A stretch of 9,140 nucleotides of DNA from a virus (lineage: Duplodnaviria > Heunggongvirae > Uroviricota > Caudoviricetes): IMG/VR virus record IMGVR_UViG_2698536549_000008. One strand, 5' to 3'. Positions within the stretch are counted from its first letter, which is position 1. Each line of letters opens with the position of its first letter. This document shows positions 1 through 9,140 of the stretch, piece after piece. Both the position numbers and the translations under genes were made by a program. The notes below the pieces were generated by a model, which saw only the letters and a program-made list of their open reading frames with translations, did no database searches and was not told the DNA's origin.

Positions 1-167
1 CAACGCGGACGGATAACACGAAATCCTGCGAACTGGCAAAACCTAAGTGAATAAAAGTAAAAAACCCGTTTGTTAGCAGCAGGTGGGGTTTTGTGTTTCC
101 TGACTCCGGAAAAGTCAAAGGAGAAAGTGTGTTTGATTTTAGCAAACTGATTCGGGAGATTTGAGTG

Positions 168-266
168 ATGGCTGAAAAATTATCCACCTGGAAGTTCATC
201 CTTATCTGGCTGGTGTTTGTGATTATGGCCCCCGGTTATTTCATCGGTCAGATACGCTGGTGGTGA
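168..266 (+). CDS. Hypothetical small single-pass membrane peptide (32 aa), directly upstream of Rz
   Basis: ATG at 168 preceded by GGGAG (154-158) and an in-frame TGA at 162-164; translation [32 protein letters not shown] has a ~20-residue hydrophobic core; stop TGA 264-266 lies 1 nt before the Rz ATG at 268. Not in the supplied ORF track (too short). No homolog recognised. Confidence 0.35.
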
Positions 267-267
267 A

Positions 268-679
268 ATGAACCGCGTTCTGTGTGTGGTCATCATTGCC
301 CTGCTGGTGGCCTGTGGTGCGCTTAGTCTGGGGCTGAATCATTACCGCGATAACGCCATCACCTACAAAGAGCAGCGCGATAAAAAAGCCAGAGAGCTGG
401 AGCTGGCAAACGCAACCATTACTGATATGCAGCAGCGCCAGCGCGATGTTGCTGCGCTCGATGCAAAATACTCGAGGGAATTAGCCGATGCGAGAGCTGA
501 AAATGAANNNNNNNNNNNNNNNNNNNNNNNNNNNNNNNNNNNNNNNNNNNNNNNNNNNNNNNNNNNNNNNNNNNNNNNNNNNNNNNNNNNNNNNNNNNNN
601 NNNNNNAGAGCGGTTGATGATGATGCAGAAGCAGCTGGAAGGGGCGCAGGAATATATCCGCACTCAGTGCCTGAAATAA
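268..679 (+). CDS. Rz: Rz i-spanin (inner-membrane spanin subunit), interrupted by the N gap
   Basis: First 79 aa ([79 protein letters not shown]) align residue-for-residue with lambda Rz as recalled; after the gap, [23 protein letters not shown] (608-679) matches the lambda Rz C-terminus. The track ORF 268..834 is an artefact of reading through the gap in the wrong frame. Confidence 0.9.
488..617 (+). CDS. Rz1: Rz1 o-spanin (outer-membrane lipoprotein spanin), embedded in Rz in the +1 frame; mostly hidden in the gap
   Basis: ATG at 488 in the +1 frame relative to Rz gives MRELKM..., positionally and sequence-wise like the lambda Rz1 start MLKLKMM; after the gap the +1 frame ends ...SG* at TGA 615-617, like lambda Rz1 ...ERG*. 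The lipobox and proline-rich core fall in the Ns and cannot be seen. Confidence 0.5.
507..606. other. Assembly or masking gap of 100 N
   Basis: Run of exactly 100 n characters. Rz and Rz1 frames on either side are offset by +1, so 100 is a placeholder; the true length must be a multiple of 3, about 150 nt if Rz is lambda-length. Confidence 0.97.
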
Positions 680-894
680 GTTTTGCTGATGCGCCGTATC
701 GTCGCCGTATTCCCGTATTAACAGAGACCGCAGCCCGACAGGGAGACTCCTCTGCGAGAGTGTGCGGGGATAATCAAAAACGATACACACCGGGGTTTAC
801 CGCGTTAACGGAGCGCGGCGTTGTCCCCTCATAGTCGCCTGTCCGGTGCGATGGTGGAAGAAACTGGATTTGTTGCAACTGATAACCATTATCA

Positions 895-1115
895 TTTTCT
901 CGGGTCCTTTCCGGCATATGGACCCGTTACGGGGCGGCGACCTCGCGGGTTTTCGCTATTTATGAAAATTTTTCGGGAAAAAGCATGTCAGTTCTTCTTG
1001 TTGTTAACCTATTGTTTTTAAAGAAATAATCATCAAGAAAGAAACGACATCAGAACGCTGAAAAATCTGTCTTTTTTGGCATTTCATGTCGTAACTGATT
1101 TTTGATAAGGAATTG
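895..1115 (+). promoter_or_regulatory. cos: cos region: cosQ-like segment, cosN, and cosB-like terminase-binding region ahead of Nu1
   Basis: 896-931 (TCTCGGGTCCTTTCCGG...GACCCGTTACG) resembles the lambda right-end sequence before cosN; 944-981 (CGCGGGTTTTCGCTATTTATGAAAATTTTTCGGG) is near-identical to the first bases after the lambda left cohesive end; further downstream lie segments resembling lambda R3/R2/R1 (e.g. GTTCTTCTTGTTGTTAA, GAAAGAAACGACA). cosN to Nu1 ATG is 188 nt, 190 in lambda. Confidence 0.8.
932..943. other. cosN: cosN: 12-nt cohesive-end sequence GGGCGGCGACCT (terminase nicking site)
   Basis: Exact match to the lambda 12-nt 5' cohesive end as recalled, in the expected position between the lysis genes and Nu1. 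Confidence 0.8.
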
Positions 1116-1119
1116 CTGA

Positions 1120-1668
1120 ATGAATGTTAATAAAAAGAAGCTTGCTGAAATCTTTAATGTCGATATACGCACTATTGATCGCTGGCAAACTCAGGGGCTC
1201 CCTCAGATATCTGGTGGAGGAAAAGGTGTTGAGGTCATCTTTGATTCTGCGAAGGCGATCGAATGGTATGCTCAGCGCGAAGCTGATATTGAAAATGAAA
1301 AACTCCGTAAAGAGGTCGAGGATTTGAGGGCGGCCAGCGAATCAGACCTTCAGCCCGGCACCATTGATTACGAACGTTACCGACTGACGAAGGCACAGGC
1401 AGATGCACAGGAACTGAAAAATGCCCGCGACAGTGGGCAGGTCATTGATACAGGGTTTTGCCTTTTTGCTCTGGGAAGACTGGCACAGGAGATCTCTGCC
1501 ATTCTTGACTCCATTCCATTGTCCATGCAGAGACAGTTTCCGGCACTGACGCCCGCTATGCTTGATTTCCTGAAAACCGATATAGCAAAGGCGGCAAACC
1601 GATGCGCATCAACGGCAGAGAAGTTACCGGAGATGCTGGATGAATACCTCAGAGAAGCAGCTAAATAA
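1120..1668 (+). CDS. Nu1: Terminase small subunit (gpNu1-like)
   Basis: 182 aa; [41 protein letters not shown]... aligns with lambda gpNu1 (MEVNKKQLADIFGASIRTIQNWQEQGMPVLRGGGKGNEVLY...), including the N-terminal HTH and the GGGKG motif; shallow SD-like AAGGA about 10 nt upstream. Confidence 0.93.
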
Positions 1669-3568
1669 CTTTGCTGTTGTTTGTGGAGTGGCACTTCGTG
1701 GGCTTTTACGCCCACTGCCTGTAACCACCGTTGAATGGGCCGATCAAAATTATTATTTGCCCCCGGAGTCCTCTTATCTTGCTGGGCGGTGGAAGACGTT
1801 GCCCTTTCAGGTGGCAATAATGAACTGCATGGGTAATGACCGGATCCGCACAATTAATCTTATAAAATCAGCTCGAGTCGGTTACACCAAAATGCTGATG
1901 GGCGTTATTGGTTACTTTATTGAGCATAAAAACCGTAACAGTCTTCTGTTTCAGCCTACGGATTCTGCCGCTGAAGATTTTATGAAGTCTCATGTGGAGT
2001 CAACATTACGGGATGTTCCCTGTCTGAAAATTCTTTCCCCCTGGCTGGGGCGTAAGCACCGGGATAACACACTGACATTAAAAAGATTCACGTCCCGTGT
2101 GGGGTTCTGGTGCCTGGGTGGTGCTGCCGCCAAAAACTACCGTGAAAAATCAGTGGATGTGGTCTGCTATGACGAACTTTCCTCATTCGAGCCGGATGTC
2201 GAAAAAGAGGGCTCGCCAACCCTGCTGGGGGATAAGCGTATTGAGGGCTCGGTATGGCCAAAATCTATTCGCGGCTCGACGCCTAAAATAAAAGGCACCT
2301 GCCAGATCGAAAAAGCGGCCAACGAGTCGGCGCATTTCATGCGTTTTTATGTGCCCTGCCCGCACTGTGGGGAGGAGCAGTATCTGAAATTTGGCGATGA
2401 ATCCACGCCTTTTGGCCTTAAATGGGAGAAGGACAGCCCCGAAAGCGTTTTCTATCTCTGTGAACATCATGGCTGCGTGATCCATCAGTCTGAGCTTGAC
2501 CAGAGCAACGGGCGGTGGATCTGTGAAAACACGGGCATGTGGACCCGTGACGGCCTGACGTTTTTCAGCGCTGCGGGTAATGAAATTCCGCCGCCGCGCT
2601 CCATCACTTTCCATATCTGGACGGCGTACAGTCCGTTCACCACCTGGGTACAGATAGTCTATGACTGGCTGGATGCACTGAAAGATCCCAACGGCCTGAA
2701 AACTTTTGTGAACACCACGCTGGGCGAGACCTGGGAAGAGGCCGTGGGCGAAAAACTCGATCACCAGGTGCTGATGGATAAGGTCGTGCATTACACGGCA
2801 GCGGTGCCTGCCCGGGTGGTTTATCTGACGGCGGGCATTGACTCGCAGCGTAACCGTTTTGAGATGTATGTCTGGGGATGGGCTCCGGGAGAGGAAGCCT
2901 TTCTGGTGGATAAAATCATCATTATGGGGCGTCCTGATGAGGAAGAGACGCTGTTACGTGTGGATGCGGCGATCAACAAAAAATACCGCCATGCAGACGG
3001 TACCGAAATGACCATTTCCCGTGTCTGCTGGGACACCGGGGGGATCGATGGTGAAATTGTTTATCAGAGATCAAAAAAACACGGTGTTTTCCGGGTGCTG
3101 CCGGTAAAAGGCGCATCTGTCTATGGCAAGCCGGTGATCACCATGCCAAAAAACCGCAATCAGCGGGGCGTGTATCTGTGTGAAGTGGGGACAGACACCG
3201 CAAAAGAAATTCTCTATGCCCGTATGAAAGCCGATCCCACGCCTGCGGATGAAGCCACGTCGTATGCCATCCGTTTTCCTGATGATCCGGAGATTTTTTC
3301 GCAGACAGAGGCGCAGCAACTGGTGGCGGAAGAACTGGTGGAGAAGTGGGAAAAAGGAAAGATGCGTCTGCTGTGGGATAACAAAAAGCGGCGTAACGAA
3401 GCGCTGGACTGCCTGGTGTATGCCTACGCGGCATTACGTGTGTCCGTGCAACGCTGGCAGCTTGATCTGGCTGTACTGGCAAAATCCCGGGAAGAAGAGA
3501 CGACCCGGCCAACCCTGAAAGAACTGGCAGCGAAGCTGTCCGGAGGAGTGAATGGTTACAGTCGCTGA
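1640..3568 (+). CDS. A: Terminase large subunit (gpA-like; packaging ATPase and cos endonuclease)
   Basis: 642 aa, collinear with lambda gpA (641 aa) over the full length (e.g. [20 protein letters not shown] at residues 76-84 = nt 1865-1891, [37 protein letters not shown]); start overlaps the Nu1 3' end by 29 nt as in lambda. Confidence 0.95.
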
Positions 3569-3758: not shown

Positions 3759-5347
3759 AACGAACGCCTGTCCTGATTGATGTGAACGGCGTTCCGCTTC
3801 GGGAGAGCCTCAGCTACCACGGGGGCGGTGCAGGATTTGGCGGGCAAATGGCGGAGTGGTTGCCACCGGCGCAGAGTGCCGATGCGGCCCTGCTGCCCGC
3901 GTTGCGTCTGGGGAATGCCCGTGCAGATGATCTGGTGCGCAATAACGGGATAGCGGCTAATGCGGTGGCCCTGCATAAGGATCATATTGTCGGGCATATG
4001 TTTCTTATCAGCTACCGTCCGAACTGGCGCTGGCTGGGGATGCGGGAGACTGCGGCAAAAAGTTTTGTCGATGAGGTGGAGGCGGCCTGGTCGGAATACG
4101 CAGAAGGGATGTTTGGCGAGATCGACGTGGAAGGGAAACGCACGTTCACGGAATTTATCCGTGAAGGTGTGGGCGTTCATGCCTTTAACGGCGAAATCTT
4201 TGTGCAGCCGGTCTGGGATACGGAGAGCACGCAGCTGTTTCGTACGCGTTTTAAAGCCGTGAGTCCGAAACGGGTGGACACGCCAGGGCACGGTATGGGG
4301 AACCGCTTTCTGCGGGCCGGTGTGGAGGTTGATCGATATGGCCGTGCCGTTGCGTACCATATCTGTGAGGATGATTTTCCGTTCTCTGGTAGTGGACGAT
4401 GGGAACGGATCCCGCGTGAACTTCCCACCGGGCGTCCGGCCATGCTGCATATTTTCGAGCCGGTGGAGGACTGGCAGACCCGTGGGGCCAATCAGTTTTA
4501 CAGCGTCATGGAACGGCTGAAGATGCTGGATTCCCTGCAGGCAACACAGCTTCAGTCGGCCATTGTTAAAGCCATGTATGCAGCGACGATTGAAAGTGAA
4601 CTTGATACCGAAAAGGCCTTTGAATATATCGCGGGGGCACCGCAGGGTCAGCAGGATAATCCGCTTATTAATATTCTGGAGAAGTTCTCCAGCTGGTATG
4701 ACACGAATCATGTGACGCTGGGCGGTGTCAAAATTCCGCACCTTTTCCCCGGTGATGATCTGAAACTGCAGACCGCGCAGGATTCAGACAATGGATTTTC
4801 GGCGCTTGAACAGGCGCTGCTGCGGTATATCGCCGCCGGTCTTGGCGTTTCCTACGAACAGTTGTCCCGTGATTACTCGAAGGTCAGTTATTCAAGTGCC
4901 CGCGCCTCTGCCAATGAGTCGTGGCGCTATTTTATGGGACGACGAAAATTTATTGCGGCCCGGCTGGCCACGCAGATGTTTTCCTGCTGGCTGGAAGAGG
5001 CACTTCTTCGGGGGATTATCCGTCCGCCACGGGCACGTTTTGATTTTTATCAGGCGCGATCAGCCTGGTCACGGGCCGAGTGGATTGGTGCCGGAAGAAT
5101 GGCCATTGACGGGCTCAAGGAGGTCCAGGAATCGGTGATGCGTATTGATTCCGGACTGAGCACGTATGAGAAAGAGCTGGCGCTGATGGGTGAGGATTAT
5201 CAGGACATTTTCCGCCAGCAGGTCAGGGAATCCGCAGAGCGGGAAAAAGCCGGACTCTCACGTCCGGTGTGGATAGCGCAGGCGTATCAGCAGCAGATAG
5301 CGGAGAGCCGCAGGCCGGAAGAGGAGACAACACCACGTGAGACGTAA
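3755..5347 (+). CDS. B: Portal protein (gpB-like)
   Basis: 530 aa; long collinear blocks shared with lambda gpB (YHGGGAGFGGQ, GNARADDLVRNNG, FEPVEDWQTRGAN, QLQSAIVKAMYAATIESELDT, LLRYIAAGLGVSYEQLSR, GRMAIDGLKEVQE); ATGA start/stop overlap with W. Confidence 0.95.
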   Translation: MKRTPVLIDVNGVPLRESLSYHGGGAGFGGQMAEWLPPAQSADAALLPALRLGNARADDLVRNNGIAANAVALHKDHIVGHMFLISYRPNWRWLGMRETAAKSFVDEVEAAWSEYAEGMFGEIDVEGKRTFTEFIREGVGVHAFNGEIFVQPVWDTESTQLFRTRFKAVSPKRVDTPGHGMGNRFLRAGVEVDRYGRAVAYHICEDDFPFSGSGRWERIPRELPTGRPAMLHIFEPVEDWQTRGANQFYSVMERLKMLDSLQATQLQSAIVKAMYAATIESELDTEKAFEYIAGAPQGQQDNPLINILEKFSSWYDTNHVTLGGVKIPHLFPGDDLKLQTAQDSDNGFSALEQALLRYIAAGLGVSYEQLSRDYSKVSYSSARASANESWRYFMGRRKFIAARLATQMFSCWLEEALLRGIIRPPRARFDFYQARSAWSRAEWIGAGRMAIDGLKEVQESVMRIDSGLSTYEKELALMGEDYQDIFRQQVRESAEREKAGLSRPVWIAQAYQQQIAESRRPEEETTPRET

Positions 5348-6842
5348 TCTTTCACACATTATTGCCGCAGCATTCAATGAACCGCTGCTTCTGGAGCCCG
5401 CCTATGCGCGGGTTTTCTTTTGCGCGCTCGGGCGCGAGATGGGGGCAGCAAGTCTTTCGTTACCACAACAGCAGGTACAGCTTGATGCTCCCGGGATGCT
5501 GGCTGAAACGGACGAGTACATGGCCGGAGGTAAACGACCGGCCCGTGTTTACCGGGTGGTGAACGGTATTGCGGTACTGCCGGTGACCGGCACGCTGGTG
5601 CACCGGCTGGGTGGTATGCGGCCATTTTCCGGAATGACAGGCTATGACGGCATTGTTGCCTGTCTTCAGCAGGCAATGGCGGACACCTCTGTCCGGGGCG
5701 TACTGCTGGATATTGACAGTCCGGGCGGGCAGGCCGCCGGTGCGTTTGACTGCGCTGACATGATTTACCGCCTCCGGCAGCAGAAGCCGGTCTGGGCACT
5801 GTGTAATGACACGGCCTGTTCTGCGGCCATGCTGCTGGCGTCGGCCTGCTCCCGACGGCTGGTTACCCAGACATCCCGTATCGGCTCCATTGGCGTGATG
5901 ATGGGCCATGTCAGCTATGCCGGTCATCTGGCGCAGGCCGGAGTGGATATCACGCTGATTTATGCCGGGGCGCATAAGGTGGATGGCAATCAGTTTGAAG
6001 CCTTACCGGCAGAGGTGTGTCAGGACATGCAGCAGCGTATTGATGCGGCGCACCGGATGTTTGCCGAAAAAGTGGCGATGTATACGGGGCTGTCTGTGGA
6101 AGCTGTCACGGGGACAGAGGCTGCCGTTTTTGAAGGTCAGTCCGGTATTGAGGCCGGGCTGGCGGATGAGTTAATCAATGCGTCGGATGCCATCAGCGTG
6201 ATGGCTGCGGCGCTGAACACACATGATACAGGAGGCACTATGCCGCAATTAACTGCAACGGAAGCCGCCGCGCAGGAGAACCAGCGAGTGATGGGGATCC
6301 TGACGTGTCAGGAAGCGAAAGGACGTGAACAGCTTGCCACGATGCTGGCAGGACAACAGGGCATGAGCGTTGAACAGGCCCGGGCGATTCTGGCTGCGGC
6401 AGCACCACAGCAGCCGGTGGCATCCGCGCAGAGTGAAGCCGATCGCATTATGGCGTGTGAAGAAGCTAAAGGTCGTGAACAACTGGCGGCAACGCTGGCG
6501 GCGATGCCGGATATGACGGTGGAAAAAGCCCGCCCGATCCTGGCTGCTTCACCGCAGGCGGATGCCGGACCCTCACTCCGTGATCAGATTATGGCTCTGG
6601 ATGAGGCAAAAGGGGCTGAGGCGCAGGCTGAAAAACTGGCGGCCTGCCCGGGAATGACCGTGGAGAACGCCCGGGCTGTGCTGGCTGCGGGATCAGGTAA
6701 GGCAGAACCGGTTTCTGCATCCACAACCGCCCTGTTTGAACATTTCATGGCGAACCATTCACCGGCAGCGGTACAGGGTGGTGTGCCACAGACGTCAGCA
6801 GACGGTGATGCGGACGTGAAAATGCTCATGGCCATGCCATGA
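5337..6842 (+). CDS. C: Head maturation protease (gpC-like, S49/ClpP-fold peptidase) with C-terminal scaffold domain
   Basis: 501 aa; N-terminal two-thirds collinear with lambda gpC (AFNEPLLLEPAYARVFFCAL, NGIAVLPVTGTLV, GAFDCADMI, SRRLVTQTSRIGSIGVMM, ITLIYAGAHKVDGN, GLADELINASDAI). Apparent GTG start at 5337 with GAGGAG 10 nt upstream, overlapping the B stop; start codon choice is uncertain. About 60 aa longer than lambda gpC. Confidence 0.9.
   Translation: MRRNLSHIIAAAFNEPLLLEPAYARVFFCALGREMGAASLSLPQQQVQLDAPGMLAETDEYMAGGKRPARVYRVVNGIAVLPVTGTLVHRLGGMRPFSGMTGYDGIVACLQQAMADTSVRGVLLDIDSPGGQAAGAFDCADMIYRLRQQKPVWALCNDTACSAAMLLASACSRRLVTQTSRIGSIGVMMGHVSYAGHLAQAGVDITLIYAGAHKVDGNQFEALPAEVCQDMQQRIDAAHRMFAEKVAMYTGLSVEAVTGTEAAVFEGQSGIEAGLADELINASDAISVMAAALNTHDTGGTMPQLTATEAAAQENQRVMGILTCQEAKGREQLATMLAGQQGMSVEQARAILAAAAPQQPVASAQSEADRIMACEEAKGREQLAATLAAMPDMTVEKARPILAASPQADAGPSLRDQIMALDEAKGAEAQAEKLAACPGMTVENARAVLAAGSGKAEPVSASTTALFEHFMANHSPAAVQGGVPQTSADGDADVKMLMAMP
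6240..6842 (+). CDS. Nu3: Scaffolding protein (gpNu3-like), in-frame internal start within C
   Basis: ATG at 6240 is in frame with C and preceded by AGGAGG (6230-6235), the strongest SD in the window; gives a 200-aa product sharing the C stop, matching the lambda C/Nu3 nested arrangement. Confidence 0.55.
   Translation: MPQLTATEAAAQENQRVMGILTCQEAKGREQLATMLAGQQGMSVEQARAILAAAAPQQPVASAQSEADRIMACEEAKGREQLAATLAAMPDMTVEKARPILAASPQADAGPSLRDQIMALDEAKGAEAQAEKLAACPGMTVENARAVLAAGSGKAEPVSASTTALFEHFMANHSPAAVQGGVPQTSADGDADVKMLMAMP
6285..6700 (+). repeat. Three tandem degenerate protein-level repeats (~40 codons each) in the C/Nu3 scaffold region
   Basis: Units RVMGILTCQEAKGREQLATMLAGQQGMSVEQARAILAAAAP (from 6285), RIMACEEAKGREQLAATLAAMPDMTVEKARPILAASP (from 6444) and QIMALDEAKGAEAQAEKLAACPGMTVENARAVLAAG (from 6585); lambda has one copy of this motif as recalled (SRIMGILNCEEAHGREEQARVLAETPGMTVKTARRILAAAP). 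The DNA copies differ at many synonymous positions. Confidence 0.6.
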
Positions 6843-6878: not shown

Positions 6879-7226
6879 ATGGTGACGAAAACCATCACTG
6901 AACAACGTGCAGAAGTACGTATTTTTGCCGGTAATGATCCGGCTCATACCGCCACAGGCAGCAGCGGGATTTCTCAGGCAACACCGGCACTGACGCCCCT
7001 GATGCTGGATGAAGCCAGCGGGAAACTGGTGGTCTGGGACGGACAGAAAGCCGGTAGTGCGGTTGGCATACTGGTACTGCCGCTTGAAGGCACAGAGACG
7101 GTGCTGACGTATTACAAGTCGGGGACCTTTGCGACGGAGGCAGTCCGCTGGCCTGAAAGTGTGGATGAACACAAAAAGGCCAACGCCTTTGTCGGCACAG
7201 CCCTGAGTCACGCGGCGCTGCCGTAA
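6879..7226 (+). CDS. D: Head decoration protein (gpD-like)
   Basis: 115 aa; DPAHTATG, TPLMLDEASGKLVVWDG, AVGIL, YYKSGTF match lambda gpD motifs (DPAHTATA, TPLMLDTSSRKLVAWDG, AVGIL, FYKSGTF); AGGAGG SD at 6864-6869. Confidence 0.92.
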   Translation: MVTKTITEQRAEVRIFAGNDPAHTATGSSGISQATPALTPLMLDEASGKLVVWDGQKAGSAVGILVLPLEGTETVLTYYKSGTFATEAVRWPESVDEHKKANAFVGTALSHAALP

Positions 7227-7283
7227 CACGTTATCAGGCCACCGCGTTGGCCTGACTGATTTCTGAATGAAAGGAACTGATTT

Positions 7284-8312
7284 ATGGGATTGTTTACGAC
7301 CCGCCAGTTACTCGGTTATACCGAACAAAAAGTGAAATTTCGTGCGCTGTTTCTGGAGCTGTTTTTCCGCCGTACGGTGAATTTCCACACCGAAGAGGTG
7401 ATGCTGGATAAAATTACCGGAAAAACGCCGGTGGCAGCCTATGTCTCCCCGGTTGTTGAAGGAAAAGTGCTGCGTCATCGTGGTGGTGAAACCCGCGTGT
7501 TGCGTCCGGGCTACGTCAAGCCGAAACACGAATTTAATTACCAGCAGGCGGTGGAGCGCCTTCCCGGTGAAGATCCGGCGCAGCTGAACGACCCGGCCTA
7601 CCGTCGTCTGCGTATCATCACCGATAACCTCAAACAGGAAGAGCACGCCATTGTCCAGGTGGAAGAAATGCAGGCGGTGAATGCCGTTCTGTATGGCAAA
7701 TACACCATGGAAGGGGAGCAGTTTGATACTGTCGAGGTTGATTTCGGGCGCTCTGAAGGAAATAACATTGAGCAGGCTGACGGTAAAAAATGGTCTGAGC
7801 AGGACCGTGATACGTTTGATCCGACGCATGATATTGACCTCTACTGCGATCAGGCCAGCGGTCTTGTGAATATCGCCATTATGGACGGTACGGTCTGGCG
7901 TCTGCTGAATGGCTTTAAGCTGTTCCGCGAAAAACTGGATACCCGTCGCGGCTCAAATTCACAACTCGAAACGGCAGTGAAAGACCTGGGGGCGGTGGTG
8001 TCTTTCAAGGGGTATTACGGTGATCTGGCCATTGTGGTGGCGAAAACATCTTATGTGGCAGAGGACGGTACCGAAAAACGTTATCTGCCGGAGGGCACGC
8101 TGGTCCTGGGAAATACGGCTGCTGATGGCATCCGTTGCTATGGTGCCATTCAGGATGCGCAGGCGTTGTCCGAAGGTGTGGTGGCCTCTTCCCGTTATCC
8201 GAAACACTGGCTGACCGTTGGCGATCCGGCCCGTGAATTCACCATGACGCAGTCCGCTCCGCTGATGGTGCTGCCGGATCCGGATGAGTTTGTGGTGGTT
8301 CAGGTGAAATAA
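7284..8312 (+). CDS. E: Major capsid protein (gpE-like)
   Basis: 342 aa vs 341 for lambda gpE; collinear throughout (PGYVKPKHE, QVEEMQAVNAVLYGKYTMEGE, KLDTRRGSNSQLETAVKDLG, TGDPAREFTMTQSAPLM, PDEFV); SD-like AAAGGA upstream. Confidence 0.95.
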   Translation: MGLFTTRQLLGYTEQKVKFRALFLELFFRRTVNFHTEEVMLDKITGKTPVAAYVSPVVEGKVLRHRGGETRVLRPGYVKPKHEFNYQQAVERLPGEDPAQLNDPAYRRLRIITDNLKQEEHAIVQVEEMQAVNAVLYGKYTMEGEQFDTVEVDFGRSEGNNIEQADGKKWSEQDRDTFDPTHDIDLYCDQASGLVNIAIMDGTVWRLLNGFKLFREKLDTRRGSNSQLETAVKDLGAVVSFKGYYGDLAIVVAKTSYVAEDGTEKRYLPEGTLVLGNTAADGIRCYGAIQDAQALSEGVVASSRYPKHWLTVGDPAREFTMTQSAPLMVLPDPDEFVVVQVK

Positions 8313-8319
8313 TCCGTGA

Positions 8320-8349
8320 GCGGGGGCGATATGCCCCCGTGTCTTTTTT
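8320..8349 (+). terminator. Putative rho-independent terminator or attenuator after the major capsid gene
   Basis: GC-rich hairpin CGGGGGC(8321-8327) / loop GATAT / GCCCCCG(8333-8339), followed by TGTCTTTTTT (8340-8349), starting 8 nt after the E stop. Confidence 0.6.
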
Positions 8350-8363
8350 CACAGAGGGCTGAG

Positions 8364-8747
8364 ATGGCAACAAAAGAAGAAAATCAGAAACGTCTTCGTG
8401 AACTGGCTGGCCTGCTGGGGCGCGAGGCAGATATGTCGGGGAGTGCAGCGGATATTGCTCAACGTGTGTCTGAGTGGGAAGAGGAGCTTGCTGTTTCCCC
8501 GGAAGGCATTATGCACTCTGATGAGAGCGGGTCTGATCAAAATTACACAGACGATGGTGAGCAGTTGAACAACACTGATGCTCCGGATGATGTTAAAGCC
8601 GTCCGGGTACGGAAGTGCCTGCAAGTGATGGGGTATTGCCCGGAGACAGGTCGTCCCGTTGAGCTGGCGTTACGGGGTATGCGTGTTCTGGTGCCATCAT
8701 CACTGGCAACGGCCATGATACAGCACGGAGCGGCTGAGTATGCGTGA
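8364..8747 (+). CDS. FI: DNA-packaging accessory protein (gpFI-like)
   Basis: Position between E and FII as in lambda; 127 aa, similar to lambda gpFI length, acidic central region; GAGGG SD 5 nt upstream of ATG 8364. The track ORF start at 8316 lies inside the terminator hairpin with no SD, so the internal ATG is preferred. Sequence similarity to lambda FI is weak, so the call rests largely on synteny. Confidence 0.75.
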   Translation: MATKEENQKRLRELAGLLGREADMSGSAADIAQRVSEWEEELAVSPEGIMHSDESGSDQNYTDDGEQLNNTDAPDDVKAVRVRKCLQVMGYCPETGRPVELALRGMRVLVPSSLATAMIQHGAAEYA

Positions 8748-9093
8748 TTTTCAGAATGCCTTTGATGCCGCCCTTGCGGGGGTGGACAGCACGATTGTTG
8801 AAGTGATGGGGATCCGTGCGCAGTTCACCTCCGGAGCACAACGTGGCGGTGAAGTTCAGGGGGTTTTTGACGATCCGGAGTCGCTGGGTTTTGCCGGTGG
8901 CGGGGTCCGTATTGAAGGAAGCAGCCCGTCATTATTTGTGCGGACGGATACGGTGCGTGCTGTGCGGCGTGGTGACACGCTGACCATTAACGGCGAGATA
9001 TTCTGGGTGGATCGTGTTTCTCCGGATGACGGGGGCAGCTGTTATCTCTGGCTCAACCGTGGGCAACCACCCGCTCTTAACCGGCGACGATAA
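8740..9093 (+). CDS. FII: Head-tail joining protein (gpFII-like)
   Basis: 117 aa, same as lambda gpFII; GVFDDPES, VRIEGSSPSLFVRTD, RRGDTLTI, FWVDRVSPDDGGSCYLWL, NRRR* align with lambda FII; start overlaps the FI stop by 8 nt. Confidence 0.9.
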   Translation: MRDFQNAFDAALAGVDSTIVEVMGIRAQFTSGAQRGGEVQGVFDDPESLGFAGGGVRIEGSSPSLFVRTDTVRAVRRGDTLTINGEIFWVDRVSPDDGGSCYLWLNRGQPPALNRRR

Positions 9094-9108
9094 ACGCAGG
9101 GTGAAATT

Positions 9109-9140
9109 ATGGCGATAAAAGGGCTTGATCAGGCGATTGA
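9109..9140 (+). CDS. Z: Tail completion protein (gpZ-like), 5' fragment truncated by the window end
   Basis: ATG 9109 gives MAIKGLDQAI..., matching the lambda gpZ N-terminus MAIKGLEQA as recalled; lies 15 nt after the FII stop with an SD-like AGGG upstream. Only 10 codons are visible. Confidence 0.6.
   Translation, partial: MAIKGLDQAI

What the first reader, a model, noticed from the sequence alone, without database searches (positions are those of the whole stretch)
8320..8349. Intrinsic terminator-like hairpin directly after the major capsid gene
A 7-bp G/C stem with a 5-nt loop and a T-rich tail sits between E and FI. In a late operon driven by antiterminated transcription this would be read through, but it could stabilise the upstream transcript 3' end or attenuate expression of downstream genes, in line with the high stoichiometric demand for D and E.
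Basis: seen in the sequence. Interest (0 to 1): 0.4.

Follow-up and report, generated by a model that had tools for sequence, protein, structure and literature searches.

The report
Terminator-type hairpin after capsid gene
A strong RNA hairpin followed by a run of U sits just after the major capsid gene of this phage-21-type prophage; it is an unannotated copy of a stem-loop already noted in lambda, HK97 and P22, and its role is still unproven.

Summary
Positions 8320-8340 form GCGGGGGC/GAUAU/GCCCCCGU (7 G:C pairs plus one G·U, about -17 kcal/mol), followed by GUC and U6 (8344-8349). The element lies in the 51-nt gap between gene E (stop 8310-8312) and FI (ATG 8364). It is the best terminator-like site in the window.

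It is not chance. A GC-rich hairpin sits just after the E-type capsid gene in 14 unrelated stem-sequence families, down to 42% protein identity, including lambda (7163-7180). Pairing is kept by compensatory changes. Four-base loops are UNCG or GNRA, which points to selection on the sense RNA. Most families carry a T-rich tail.

It is not new as a kind. The P22 RefSeq record annotates a stem-loop after its coat gene as [quoted passage not shown], and HK97 annotates a putative terminator there. A 2020 phage L paper says the roles of such intra-operon terminators are unknown.

Most likely mechanism (inferred): Q-modified polymerase reads through it. The hairpin then marks or protects the 3' end of D-E message, by partial termination, an exonuclease block, or both. 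It also stops unmodified polymerase. Its terminator score is borderline. No transcript data could be consulted.

The parts
6879..7226 (+). Head decoration gene (D / shp), upstream abundant-protein gene
   Evidence: ORF list; Pfam PF02924, E = 6e-24; annotated as D/shp in relatives
7234..7255 (+). Companion hairpin in the D|E gap: TCAGGCCA-CCGCGT-TGGCCTGA, with a weak T-containing tail CTGATTTCTG
   Evidence: Second-ranked site in the terminator scan. Conserved in relatives; lambda-type modules carry a canonical terminator at this position
7284..8312 (+). Major capsid protein gene (E / phage 21 gene 7), stop TAA 8310-8312
   Evidence: Pfam PF03864, E = 9e-67; 96.9% nucleotide identity (query 7200-9140) to PhiR12 phages and about 90% to phage 21, annotated as major capsid protein
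8320..8340 (+). Core RNA hairpin: 8-bp stem (7 G:C plus G·U), 5-nt loop GAUAU
   Evidence: -16.8 kcal/mol. P(paired) 0.92 for the basal G8320 and about 1.0 for the other seven 5'-arm bases in the ensemble. Conserved with pairing-preserving changes
8318..8343 (+). Extended stem: adds G8318-C8343 and A8319-U8342 across a bulged G8341, so the stem abuts the U tract
   Evidence: MFE of 8313-8349, -17.7 kcal/mol. No covariation evidence for the two extra pairs
8344..8349 (+). T6 (U6) tract, the terminator-type tail. It can also pair weakly with the FI Shine-Dalgarno region
   Evidence: T enrichment after the stem across 14 hairpin families. The second hairpin adds -4.2 kcal/mol
8354..8358 (+). Shine-Dalgarno GAGGG of FI, 5 nt before the ATG
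   Evidence: Sequence; an RBS is annotated at the equivalent place in M81255
8364..8747 (+). DNA-packaging protein FI gene, the first gene downstream of the hairpin
   Evidence: Pfam PF14000, E = 8e-14; the same 384-nt CDS is annotated in PV340551

Best explanation
The element is a selected, sense-strand RNA hairpin of the intrinsic-terminator type. It is the phage-21-type version of the stem-loop that follows the major capsid gene in lambda, HK97 and P22. Proposed mechanism: during lytic growth the late operon is transcribed by Q-modified RNA polymerase, which largely ignores it. Once the RNA has left the polymerase the hairpin folds. It then defines a 3' boundary for upstream (D-E) message, either because a minority of polymerases terminate in the U tract, or because 3'-to-5' exonucleases working back from downstream cleavages stall at the GC stem. 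Either way E-coding RNA outnumbers or outlasts FI-and-beyond RNA. Any polymerase not modified by Q is stopped here. Shown: the structure, its position, its conservation, and the strand-specific RNA signature (confidence about 0.9 for that part). Inferred: termination, read-through, exonuclease blocking, and any effect on expression ratios. The overall confidence given here refers to this functional part.
For: The structure is real and exceptional within the window.

A hairpin sits 2-25 nt after the E stop codon in 14 unrelated stem-sequence families, from Escherichia, Shigella, Providencia, Serratia, Trabulsiella, Pseudoalteromonas, Photobacterium and others. In each locus it is among the strongest 1-14% of 75-nt windows (top 6% or better in 10 of 14) and beats base-composition shuffles (p <= 0.02).

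Within the homologous phage-21-type set, every stem substitution keeps pairing: C->U giving G·U at three positions, and one G:C->A:U double change in a Shigella prophage. The loop and the spacer vary freely. RNAalifold recovers the hairpin from alignments that were not anchored on it, and in 16 lambda-type sequences it is the only consensus structure.

In every independent family with a 4-nt loop, that loop is UNCG or GNRA: UUCG, UACG, UGCG, GAAA. These are stabilising only on the sense RNA.

T enrichment after the stem: 8 of 14 families have at least 6 T in 10, and T after the stem exceeds A before it (p = 0.026).

Lambda has a hairpin at the same place (7163-7180). It is one of only three intergenic plus-strand terminator-like sites that the scan found in lambda 1-20 kb; the scan missed the D|E terminator found later. 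The D|E gap also carries a hairpin, which is a canonical terminator in lambda-type modules, so both abundant-protein genes end in one.

Public annotation: P22 carries stem_loop 6102-6119 'similar in location to stem-loops in phage HK97 and phage lambda', and HK97 carries a putative terminator at 5192-5213.

Literature: the Q-lambda nozzle precludes terminator hairpin formation (PMC9388147 abstract). Leaky terminators balance expression in T7 and other phages (PMC9163698).
Against: No transcript 3'-end, coverage or half-life data were available, so every functional step is inference.

The terminator discriminant is borderline: +5.9 for the window and +9.7 for lambda E|FI, against +25 to +40 for lambda t_oop, tR2 and the lom terminator. 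The formula was re-implemented from memory.

With the core stem, 3 nt (GUC) separate the stem from the U6.

Three hairpin families have no T tail (Trabulsiella L010, Buttiauxella L012, Cedecea L048). Three distant lineages have no hairpin at all (L054, L056, L058).

Q antitermination should suppress termination almost completely. From memory (paper not held), Sampson et al. 1988 found near-uniform mRNA across the lambda late genes.

Lambda has no comparable hairpin after the major tail gene V, where the gap is only 15 nt. 'Abundant gene, therefore hairpin' is thus not general.
Confidence: 0.5

Rival explanations
1. Fail-safe or insulator terminator. Its only real job is to stop polymerases that are not Q-modified (leak through tR', spurious internal starts, read-in during lysogeny). 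This keeps downstream head-completion and tail genes silent. It has no effect on stoichiometry in the lytic cycle.
For: It has canonical terminator anatomy, and the T tail is conserved in most families; an exonuclease barrier alone would not need a T tail. Authors of the phage L genome paper list this as one of two possibilities (PMC8022706). Q-type nozzles block hairpin formation, so the element should be inert for Q-loaded polymerase (PMC9388147).
Against: Leak from pR' would cross the lysis and terminase genes long before reaching E, so the position after the capsid gene is hard to explain by insulation alone. The same position recurs in three non-homologous capsid modules, which points to the capsid gene itself. 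Several family members lack a T tail yet keep the hairpin.
Confidence: 0.22
2. Translation-context element for FI. The hairpin and U-rich tract set FI initiation. They could isolate the FI ribosome-binding site from the heavily translated E message, offer a U-rich S1/standby site, or damp FI through pairing between the U tract and the Shine-Dalgarno.
For: The stem ends 16-27 nt before the next ATG in 13 of the 14 families (11 nt in L010), at the 5' edge of the ribosome-binding site. In the window GUCUUUU pairs with AGAGGGC; this adds -4.2 kcal/mol and leaves the Shine-Dalgarno bases only 18-45% unpaired.
Against: The tight spacing is expected anyway in a compact genome. Pyrimidine tails pair with purine-rich Shine-Dalgarno sequences by default, and this pairing was not tested for conservation. 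The same hairpin type follows D and precedes E, the most highly translated gene, so a damping role is unlikely to be general.
Confidence: 0.15
3. Source of a 3'-end-derived small RNA: the end of the E message plus the terminator hairpin and U tail is released as an Hfq-binding regulator.
For: A hairpin plus U tail is the standard Hfq-binding 3' module. Antitermination-linked phage sRNAs do exist (StxS, PMC7547250; lambda 6S/LPR2).
Against: A lambda RIL-seq study reports three Hfq sRNAs (PreS, LPR2, 6S), none at the E 3' end. The sequence upstream of the hairpin is constrained as coding. Stem sequences turn over completely between families, with no conserved seed.
Confidence: 0.05
4. Chance palindrome or a DNA-level element (protein-binding inverted repeat, recombination or module-boundary site) with no RNA function.
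For: E|FI lies close to a mosaic joint: relatives fall into two FI 5'-sequence types, and some phage alignments break downstream of E.
Against: There are 14 independent stem sequences at one position with pairing kept. UNCG and GNRA loops and the T tail are strand-specific RNA features. No promoter-like site was found.
Confidence: 0.03

Closest known systems
Stem-loop between E and FI of phage lambda (NC_001416 7163-7180, AUGGCCC-UUCG-GGGCCAU + UGUUUCUCU)
   Same: Same position in a homologous head module: directly after the PF03864 capsid gene and before FI. GC-rich 7-8 bp stem, pyrimidine-rich tail, about 20 nt before the FI ATG.
   Different: Unrelated stem sequence. Lambda has a cUUCGg tetraloop; the window has the 5-nt loop GAUAU. 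Lambda's tail is an interrupted U run; the window has U6 after a 3-nt spacer. Neither is annotated in NC_001416 or J02459.
Annotated stem-loop / putative terminator after the coat genes of P22 (6102-6119) and HK97 (5192-5213), and the putative terminator at the end of the procapsid module of phage L
   Same: Hairpin plus T-rich tail immediately after the major capsid gene, inside a single antiterminated late operon (PMC8022706). The P22 record explicitly links it to lambda and HK97.
   Different: The capsid genes of these three phage types belong to different sequence families (assessed from annotation and prior knowledge, not compared here), so the likeness is positional and functional, not by descent. 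Experimental roles are stated to be unknown.
T7 T-phi, the leaky terminator after major capsid gene 10 (established knowledge; inefficient T7 terminators balancing expression are cited in PMC9163698)
   Same: A terminator-type hairpin directly after the capsid gene that lets some transcription continue into downstream structural genes.
   Different: T-phi acts on T7 RNA polymerase and its partial termination is measured. Here the polymerase is the host enzyme carrying Q, and termination efficiency is unknown.
Intercistronic 3' stabiliser hairpins in polycistronic mRNAs (for example REP in malE-malF, or the puf operon hairpins; established knowledge)
   Same: A stable stem-loop at the 3' side of the cistron needed in larger amount. 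The proposed action is as a barrier to 3'-to-5' exonucleases.
   Different: REP elements are a repeated about 35-nt sequence family without a U tail. This element was not compared with the REP consensus, and differential decay was not measured.

Membership tests
Intrinsic (Rho-independent) terminator | GC-rich stem of about 5-14 bp with a 3-8 nt loop on the transcribed-sense strand | tested here: met
   8-bp stem with 7 G:C pairs, 5-nt loop, -16.8 kcal/mol
Intrinsic (Rho-independent) terminator | U tract starting immediately (0-2 nt) after the stem | tested here: inconclusive
   With the core stem, GUC separates the stem from the U6. With the extended bulged stem (8318-8343) the U6 abuts it. 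The Shigella variant L007 has UUUUU directly after the stem
Intrinsic (Rho-independent) terminator | Discriminant score comparable to proven terminators | tested here: inconclusive
   d = +5.9, against +25 to +40 for lambda t_oop, tR2 and the lom terminator. Background windows average -60, and only 3 of 227 exceed 0. The formula was re-implemented from memory
Intrinsic (Rho-independent) terminator | RNA 3' ends in the U tract, in vivo or in vitro | not testable with these tools
   No transcript data were accessible. Term-seq of EHEC Sakai exists (GSE143631, PMC7547250) but could not be read
Post-capsid-gene stem-loop of lambdoid late operons (lambda / HK97 / P22 kind) | Lies directly after the major capsid gene stop and before the next head-completion gene, on the late-transcript strand | tested here: met
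   7 nt after the E stop and 23 nt before the FI ATG. Annotated counterparts
Post-capsid-gene stem-loop of lambdoid late operons (lambda / HK97 / P22 kind) | Structure kept while sequence turns over among related modules | tested here: met
   14 stem families. 97.5% and 94.6% of cells paired, against 33-63% in slid controls (those alignments were anchored on the hairpins). Recovered from unanchored alignments by RNAalifold
mRNA 3' stabiliser hairpin | Upstream segment is more abundant or longer-lived than the downstream segment, dependent on the stem | not testable with these tools
   Needs RNA half-life or coverage measurements and stem mutants
Any curated RNA family (Rfam 15) | Match at or above a family's gathering score | tested here: not met
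   No match in the whole window on either strand
Hfq-dependent 3'-end-derived sRNA | A discrete small RNA bound by Hfq and ending at the terminator | not testable with these tools
   Only the 3' module (hairpin plus U tail) is present. A lambda RIL-seq study lists no sRNA at the E 3' end

The most novel reading that the evidence does not exclude
The two conserved hairpins that bracket gene E (D|E and E|FI), together with nozzle-type Q antitermination, form a shared post-transcriptional device in lambdoid phages. Polymerase reads through, the hairpins fold behind it, and processing yields discrete long-lived D and E messages. Capsid stoichiometry would then be set partly by segmental mRNA stability rather than by translation initiation alone. 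A variant of this reading: the terminators are tuned to be partly resistant to Q.
Probability: 0.15. Interest if true: 0.5.

Novelty: new member of a known kind. Interest (0 to 1): 0.25.

Why it matters
A textbook antiterminated operon keeps terminator-shaped hairpins right after its most abundantly expressed genes. They have persisted across many lineages and through complete turnover of the stem sequence, and a 2020 genome paper still calls their roles unknown. Showing whether they set mRNA ratios, protect message ends or only stop unmodified polymerase would settle a small but long-standing question about how lambdoid phages balance structural proteins. The answer would also help in designing synthetic phage operons. 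For this window specifically the finding is ordinary: an unannotated instance of a known feature, present in prophages of over a quarter of complete E. coli genomes.

Tried and rejected
Rfam scan of the whole window: no family.

Promoter in the gap: none.

Minus-strand terminator: the complementary hairpin folds (-15.9 kcal/mol) but has no T tail on that strand. It was rejected.

N-terminal extension of FI from GTG 8316 across the hairpin (ORF 8316-8747). Rejected, because relatives with 1-nt indels in the gap break that frame (L132, L090, L139), and records annotate the ATG that has a Shine-Dalgarno.

E-3' sRNA idea: no support in the lambda RIL-seq paper.

Exact hairpin sequences appear in no searchable paper.

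Papers that would bear directly on function were not held: Liu 2013 PNAS, Sampson 1988 PNAS, Casjens and Hendrix 2015, and the two P22 genome papers. Several literature searches gave only general context.

Technical dead ends. My first next-start heuristic picked the ATG inside the loop and was replaced. Alignment A3 misplaced three unrelated hairpins and was redone as A4. The lambda tR' positive control was not captured by my scoring window. The built-in scan misses lambda's D|E terminator because its T run is counted into the stem.

Not done: a test of whether the U-tract:Shine-Dalgarno pairing is conserved, and a comparison with the REP consensus.

Full report
**What the window is.** The 9.1-kb window is a phage-21-type lambdoid head gene cluster in an E. 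coli prophage. A 281-nt segment spanning the site is 100% identical to strain 89-3156, and related copies occur in 1,546 of 5,426 complete E. coli genomes. The region 7200-9140 is 96.9% identical to the PhiR12 phages and about 90% to phage 21. The ORF order is Nu1, A, W, B, C/Nu3, D, E, FI, FII. Pfam confirms D (PF02924), E (PF03864), FI (PF14000) and FII (PF05354).

**The observation.** E ends with TAA at 8310-8312, and FI starts at ATG 8364 behind a GAGGG Shine-Dalgarno at 8354-8358.
- In the 51-nt gap, 8320-8327 (GCGGGGGC) pairs with 8333-8340 (GCCCCCGT) around the loop GATAT. That gives seven G:C pairs plus a basal G·U.
- The stem is followed by GTC and T6 at 8344-8349.
- The core hairpin is worth -16.8 kcal/mol. 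An alternative fold adds A8319-U8342 and G8318-C8343 across a bulged G, which places the U6 directly against the stem (-17.7 kcal/mol).
- It is the top terminator-like hit in the window.
- It is the third strongest 30-nt fold on the plus strand. The two stronger ones lie inside the C/Nu3 coding region and have no T tail.
- The 56-nt context folds with z = -2.2 against shuffles.

**Is it more than chance?** I collected 163 loci that encode E homologues, from one-genome-per-species contigs and from IMG/VR. I then read the sequence after each E stop codon; 144 loci were usable.
- They gave 56 distinct downstream sequences.
- Apart from three distant lineages whose next gene starts 8-10 nt after the stop, all carry a GC-rich hairpin 2-25 nt after the stop and 16-27 nt (11 nt in one lineage, L010) before the next ATG.
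- The stems fall into 14 unrelated sequence families. Examples: GCGGGGGC/GCCCCCG in the window and phage 21; GCGGGAGC/GCUCCCG in a Shigella prophage; CGGCGGG-GAAA-CCCGCCG in Providencia; AUGGCCC-UUCG-GGGCCAU in lambda; CAUGCCCC/GGGGCAUG; AUGGCCGC/GCGGCCAU; AAGCCGC/GCGGCUU; AUGGGGC/GCCCCAU.
- In each locus the hairpin is among the strongest 1-14% of 75-nt windows (top 6% or better in 10 of 14) and beats composition shuffles (p <= 0.02).
- Among 87 phage-21-type sequences (18 distinct) every stem substitution preserves pairing: three C->U changes giving G·U, and one G:C->A:U double change. The loop and the spacer before FI vary freely.
- Loop-anchored alignments show 97.5% and 94.6% of cells paired, against 33-63% when the partner is slid by 1-3 columns. 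Double changes occur at 7 of 8 and 3 of 7 pairs. Those alignments were built from hairpins I had already detected, so the paired percentage is partly circular.
- Independent support comes and from RNAalifold on alignments anchored only on the coding flanks. RNAalifold recovers the hairpin, and in 16 lambda-type sequences it is the sole consensus structure.

**RNA or DNA?** In every independent family with a four-base loop, that loop is UNCG or GNRA: UUCG, UACG, UGCG, GAAA. This includes P22 and HK97.
- By my calculation the chance expectation is about 0.05 per loop.
- These loops are stabilising only in the sense-strand RNA.
- The 10 nt after the last G:C pair are T-rich in most families. Eight of 14 have at least 6 T, where P is about 0.02 each at genome composition. 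T after the stem also exceeds A before it (p = 0.026).
- Caveat: U-rich sequence upstream of a Shine-Dalgarno is common in any case.

Together these features mark a sense-strand RNA element of the terminator type.

**How good a terminator is it?** I re-implemented the d'Aubenton-Carafa discriminant from memory, so I use it only for relative comparison.

| Site | Score |
|---|---|
| Window E\|FI | +5.9 |
| Lambda E\|FI | +9.7 |
| Shigella variant (L007) | +24.9 |
| P22 | +22.7 |
| HK97 | +26.8 |
| Lambda t_oop | +29.6 |
| Lambda tR2 | +25.0 |
| Lambda lom terminator | +40.4 |
| Background 75-nt windows | mean -60; 3 of 227 above 0 |

The window's element is terminator-like but borderline. Three families keep the hairpin with no T tail (L010, L012, L048).

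**Context.** Within lambda 1-20 kb the built-in scan finds plus-strand, intergenic terminator-like sites only at E|FI, J|lom and after lom.
- The D|E gap also holds a hairpin. In the window it is 7234-7255 (TCAGGCCA-CCGCGT-TGGCCTGA).
- In lambda-type modules the D|E hairpin is a canonical terminator (AAAGGCCGC-CUGU-GCGGCUUUU + UUU, score +22), which the built-in scan misses.
- Both abundant head-protein genes therefore end in a hairpin.

**What is already known.**
- The P22 RefSeq record annotates stem_loop 6102-6119 after coat gene 5 as [quoted passage not shown].
- The HK97 record annotates a putative terminator at 5192-5213 after gp5, and others around the major tail gene.
- The phage L genome paper notes a putative terminator at the end of the procapsid module inside the late operon. 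[quoted passage not shown] It suggests either partial termination or the stopping of transcription that lacks antitermination (PMC8022706).
- Neither the lambda records nor the phage 21 record annotate the E|FI hairpin.

This is therefore an unannotated member of a known kind.

**Mechanism.**
- Q-lambda forms a nozzle on the RNA exit channel that precludes terminator hairpin formation (PMC9388147 abstract). From prior knowledge (Yin et al. 2019, cited in PMC8022706 only for its structure and binding site), Q21 acts the same way.
- Late transcription should therefore pass the site, and the hairpin should fold afterwards in the mRNA.
- My best reading (about 0.5) is that it then defines or protects a 3' boundary for D-E message, through residual termination, a block to 3' exonucleases, or both, while stopping any unmodified polymerase.
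- The conserved T tail argues that termination itself matters. The tail-less families argue that the stem alone has value.
- Rivals are a pure fail-safe terminator (0.22), a translation-context element for FI (0.15), a 3'-derived sRNA (0.05), and a DNA-level element or chance palindrome (0.03). For the translation rival, the U tract can pair with the Shine-Dalgarno for an extra -4.2 kcal/mol. For the sRNA rival, lambda RIL-seq gives no support.
- Against strong attenuation: from memory (paper not held), Sampson et al. 1988 reported near-uniform late mRNA levels in lambda.
- No transcript data could be examined here, so the functional steps remain inference.

**Verdict.** The kind of element is already known, so interest is low to moderate.

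Noticed in passing
window 7234-7255 (lambda about 6095-6120 in L164): A second conserved hairpin lies in the D|E gap, so gene E is bracketed by hairpins. In lambda-type modules it is a canonical terminator (AAAGGCCGC-CTGT-GCGGCTTTT + TTT). In phage-21-type relatives it is usually TCAGGCCAC-CGCG-GTGGCCTGA, and it is disrupted in 4 of about 20 variants.
   Followed up: partly
window 5397-5412 (+ TTTTCTTTT); lambda 4484-4505: A hairpin plus T tract lies about 50 nt after the portal gene stop, inside the 5' part of gene C. It is shared by the window and lambda. It is one of only three plus-strand windows with a positive terminator score. HK97 annotates a putative terminator at the end of its portal gene.
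   Followed up: partly
window 8310-8366: E and FI are in the same reading frame, with no stop between the E TAA and the FI ATG (ORF 8316-8747 from GTG). Read-through of TAA would fuse E to FI. The frame is not kept in relatives with 1-nt indels. The protein database holds E-FI fusion calls (P0005, P0103, P0108, P0112; PF03864 + PF14000).
   Followed up: partly
window 8304-8309 and 8347-8352: GTGAAA (the last two E codons) is the exact complement of TTTCAC at the end of the T tract. RNAalifold draws an outer helix enclosing the hairpin. It has no covariation support and is lost in the Shigella variant.
   Followed up: partly
window 7283-7527: The Aeromonas phage AP1 record MT713136 (254 kb) contains 245 nt that are 98% identical to the 5' part of this E. 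coli capsid gene. This looks like an assembly chimera or contamination.
   Followed up: no
loci L013-L028, L046, L049, L051, L060-L080: Short, low-coverage contigs carrying lambda gene E appear in genome assemblies of unrelated taxa (Kitasatospora, Paenibacillus, Bradyrhizobium, an Akkermansia MAG, Prevotella and others). This is almost certainly lambda DNA contamination.
   Followed up: no
window 5579-5608 and 6136-6165: The two strongest local RNA folds in the window (-21.0 and -20.6 kcal/mol) lie inside the C/Nu3 coding region and have no T tail.
   Followed up: no
loci L054, L056, L058: Three distant E homologues (42-43% identity; Cedecea, Kluyvera, Superficieibacter) have no post-capsid hairpin. 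A different downstream gene starts 8-10 nt after the stop.
   Followed up: no
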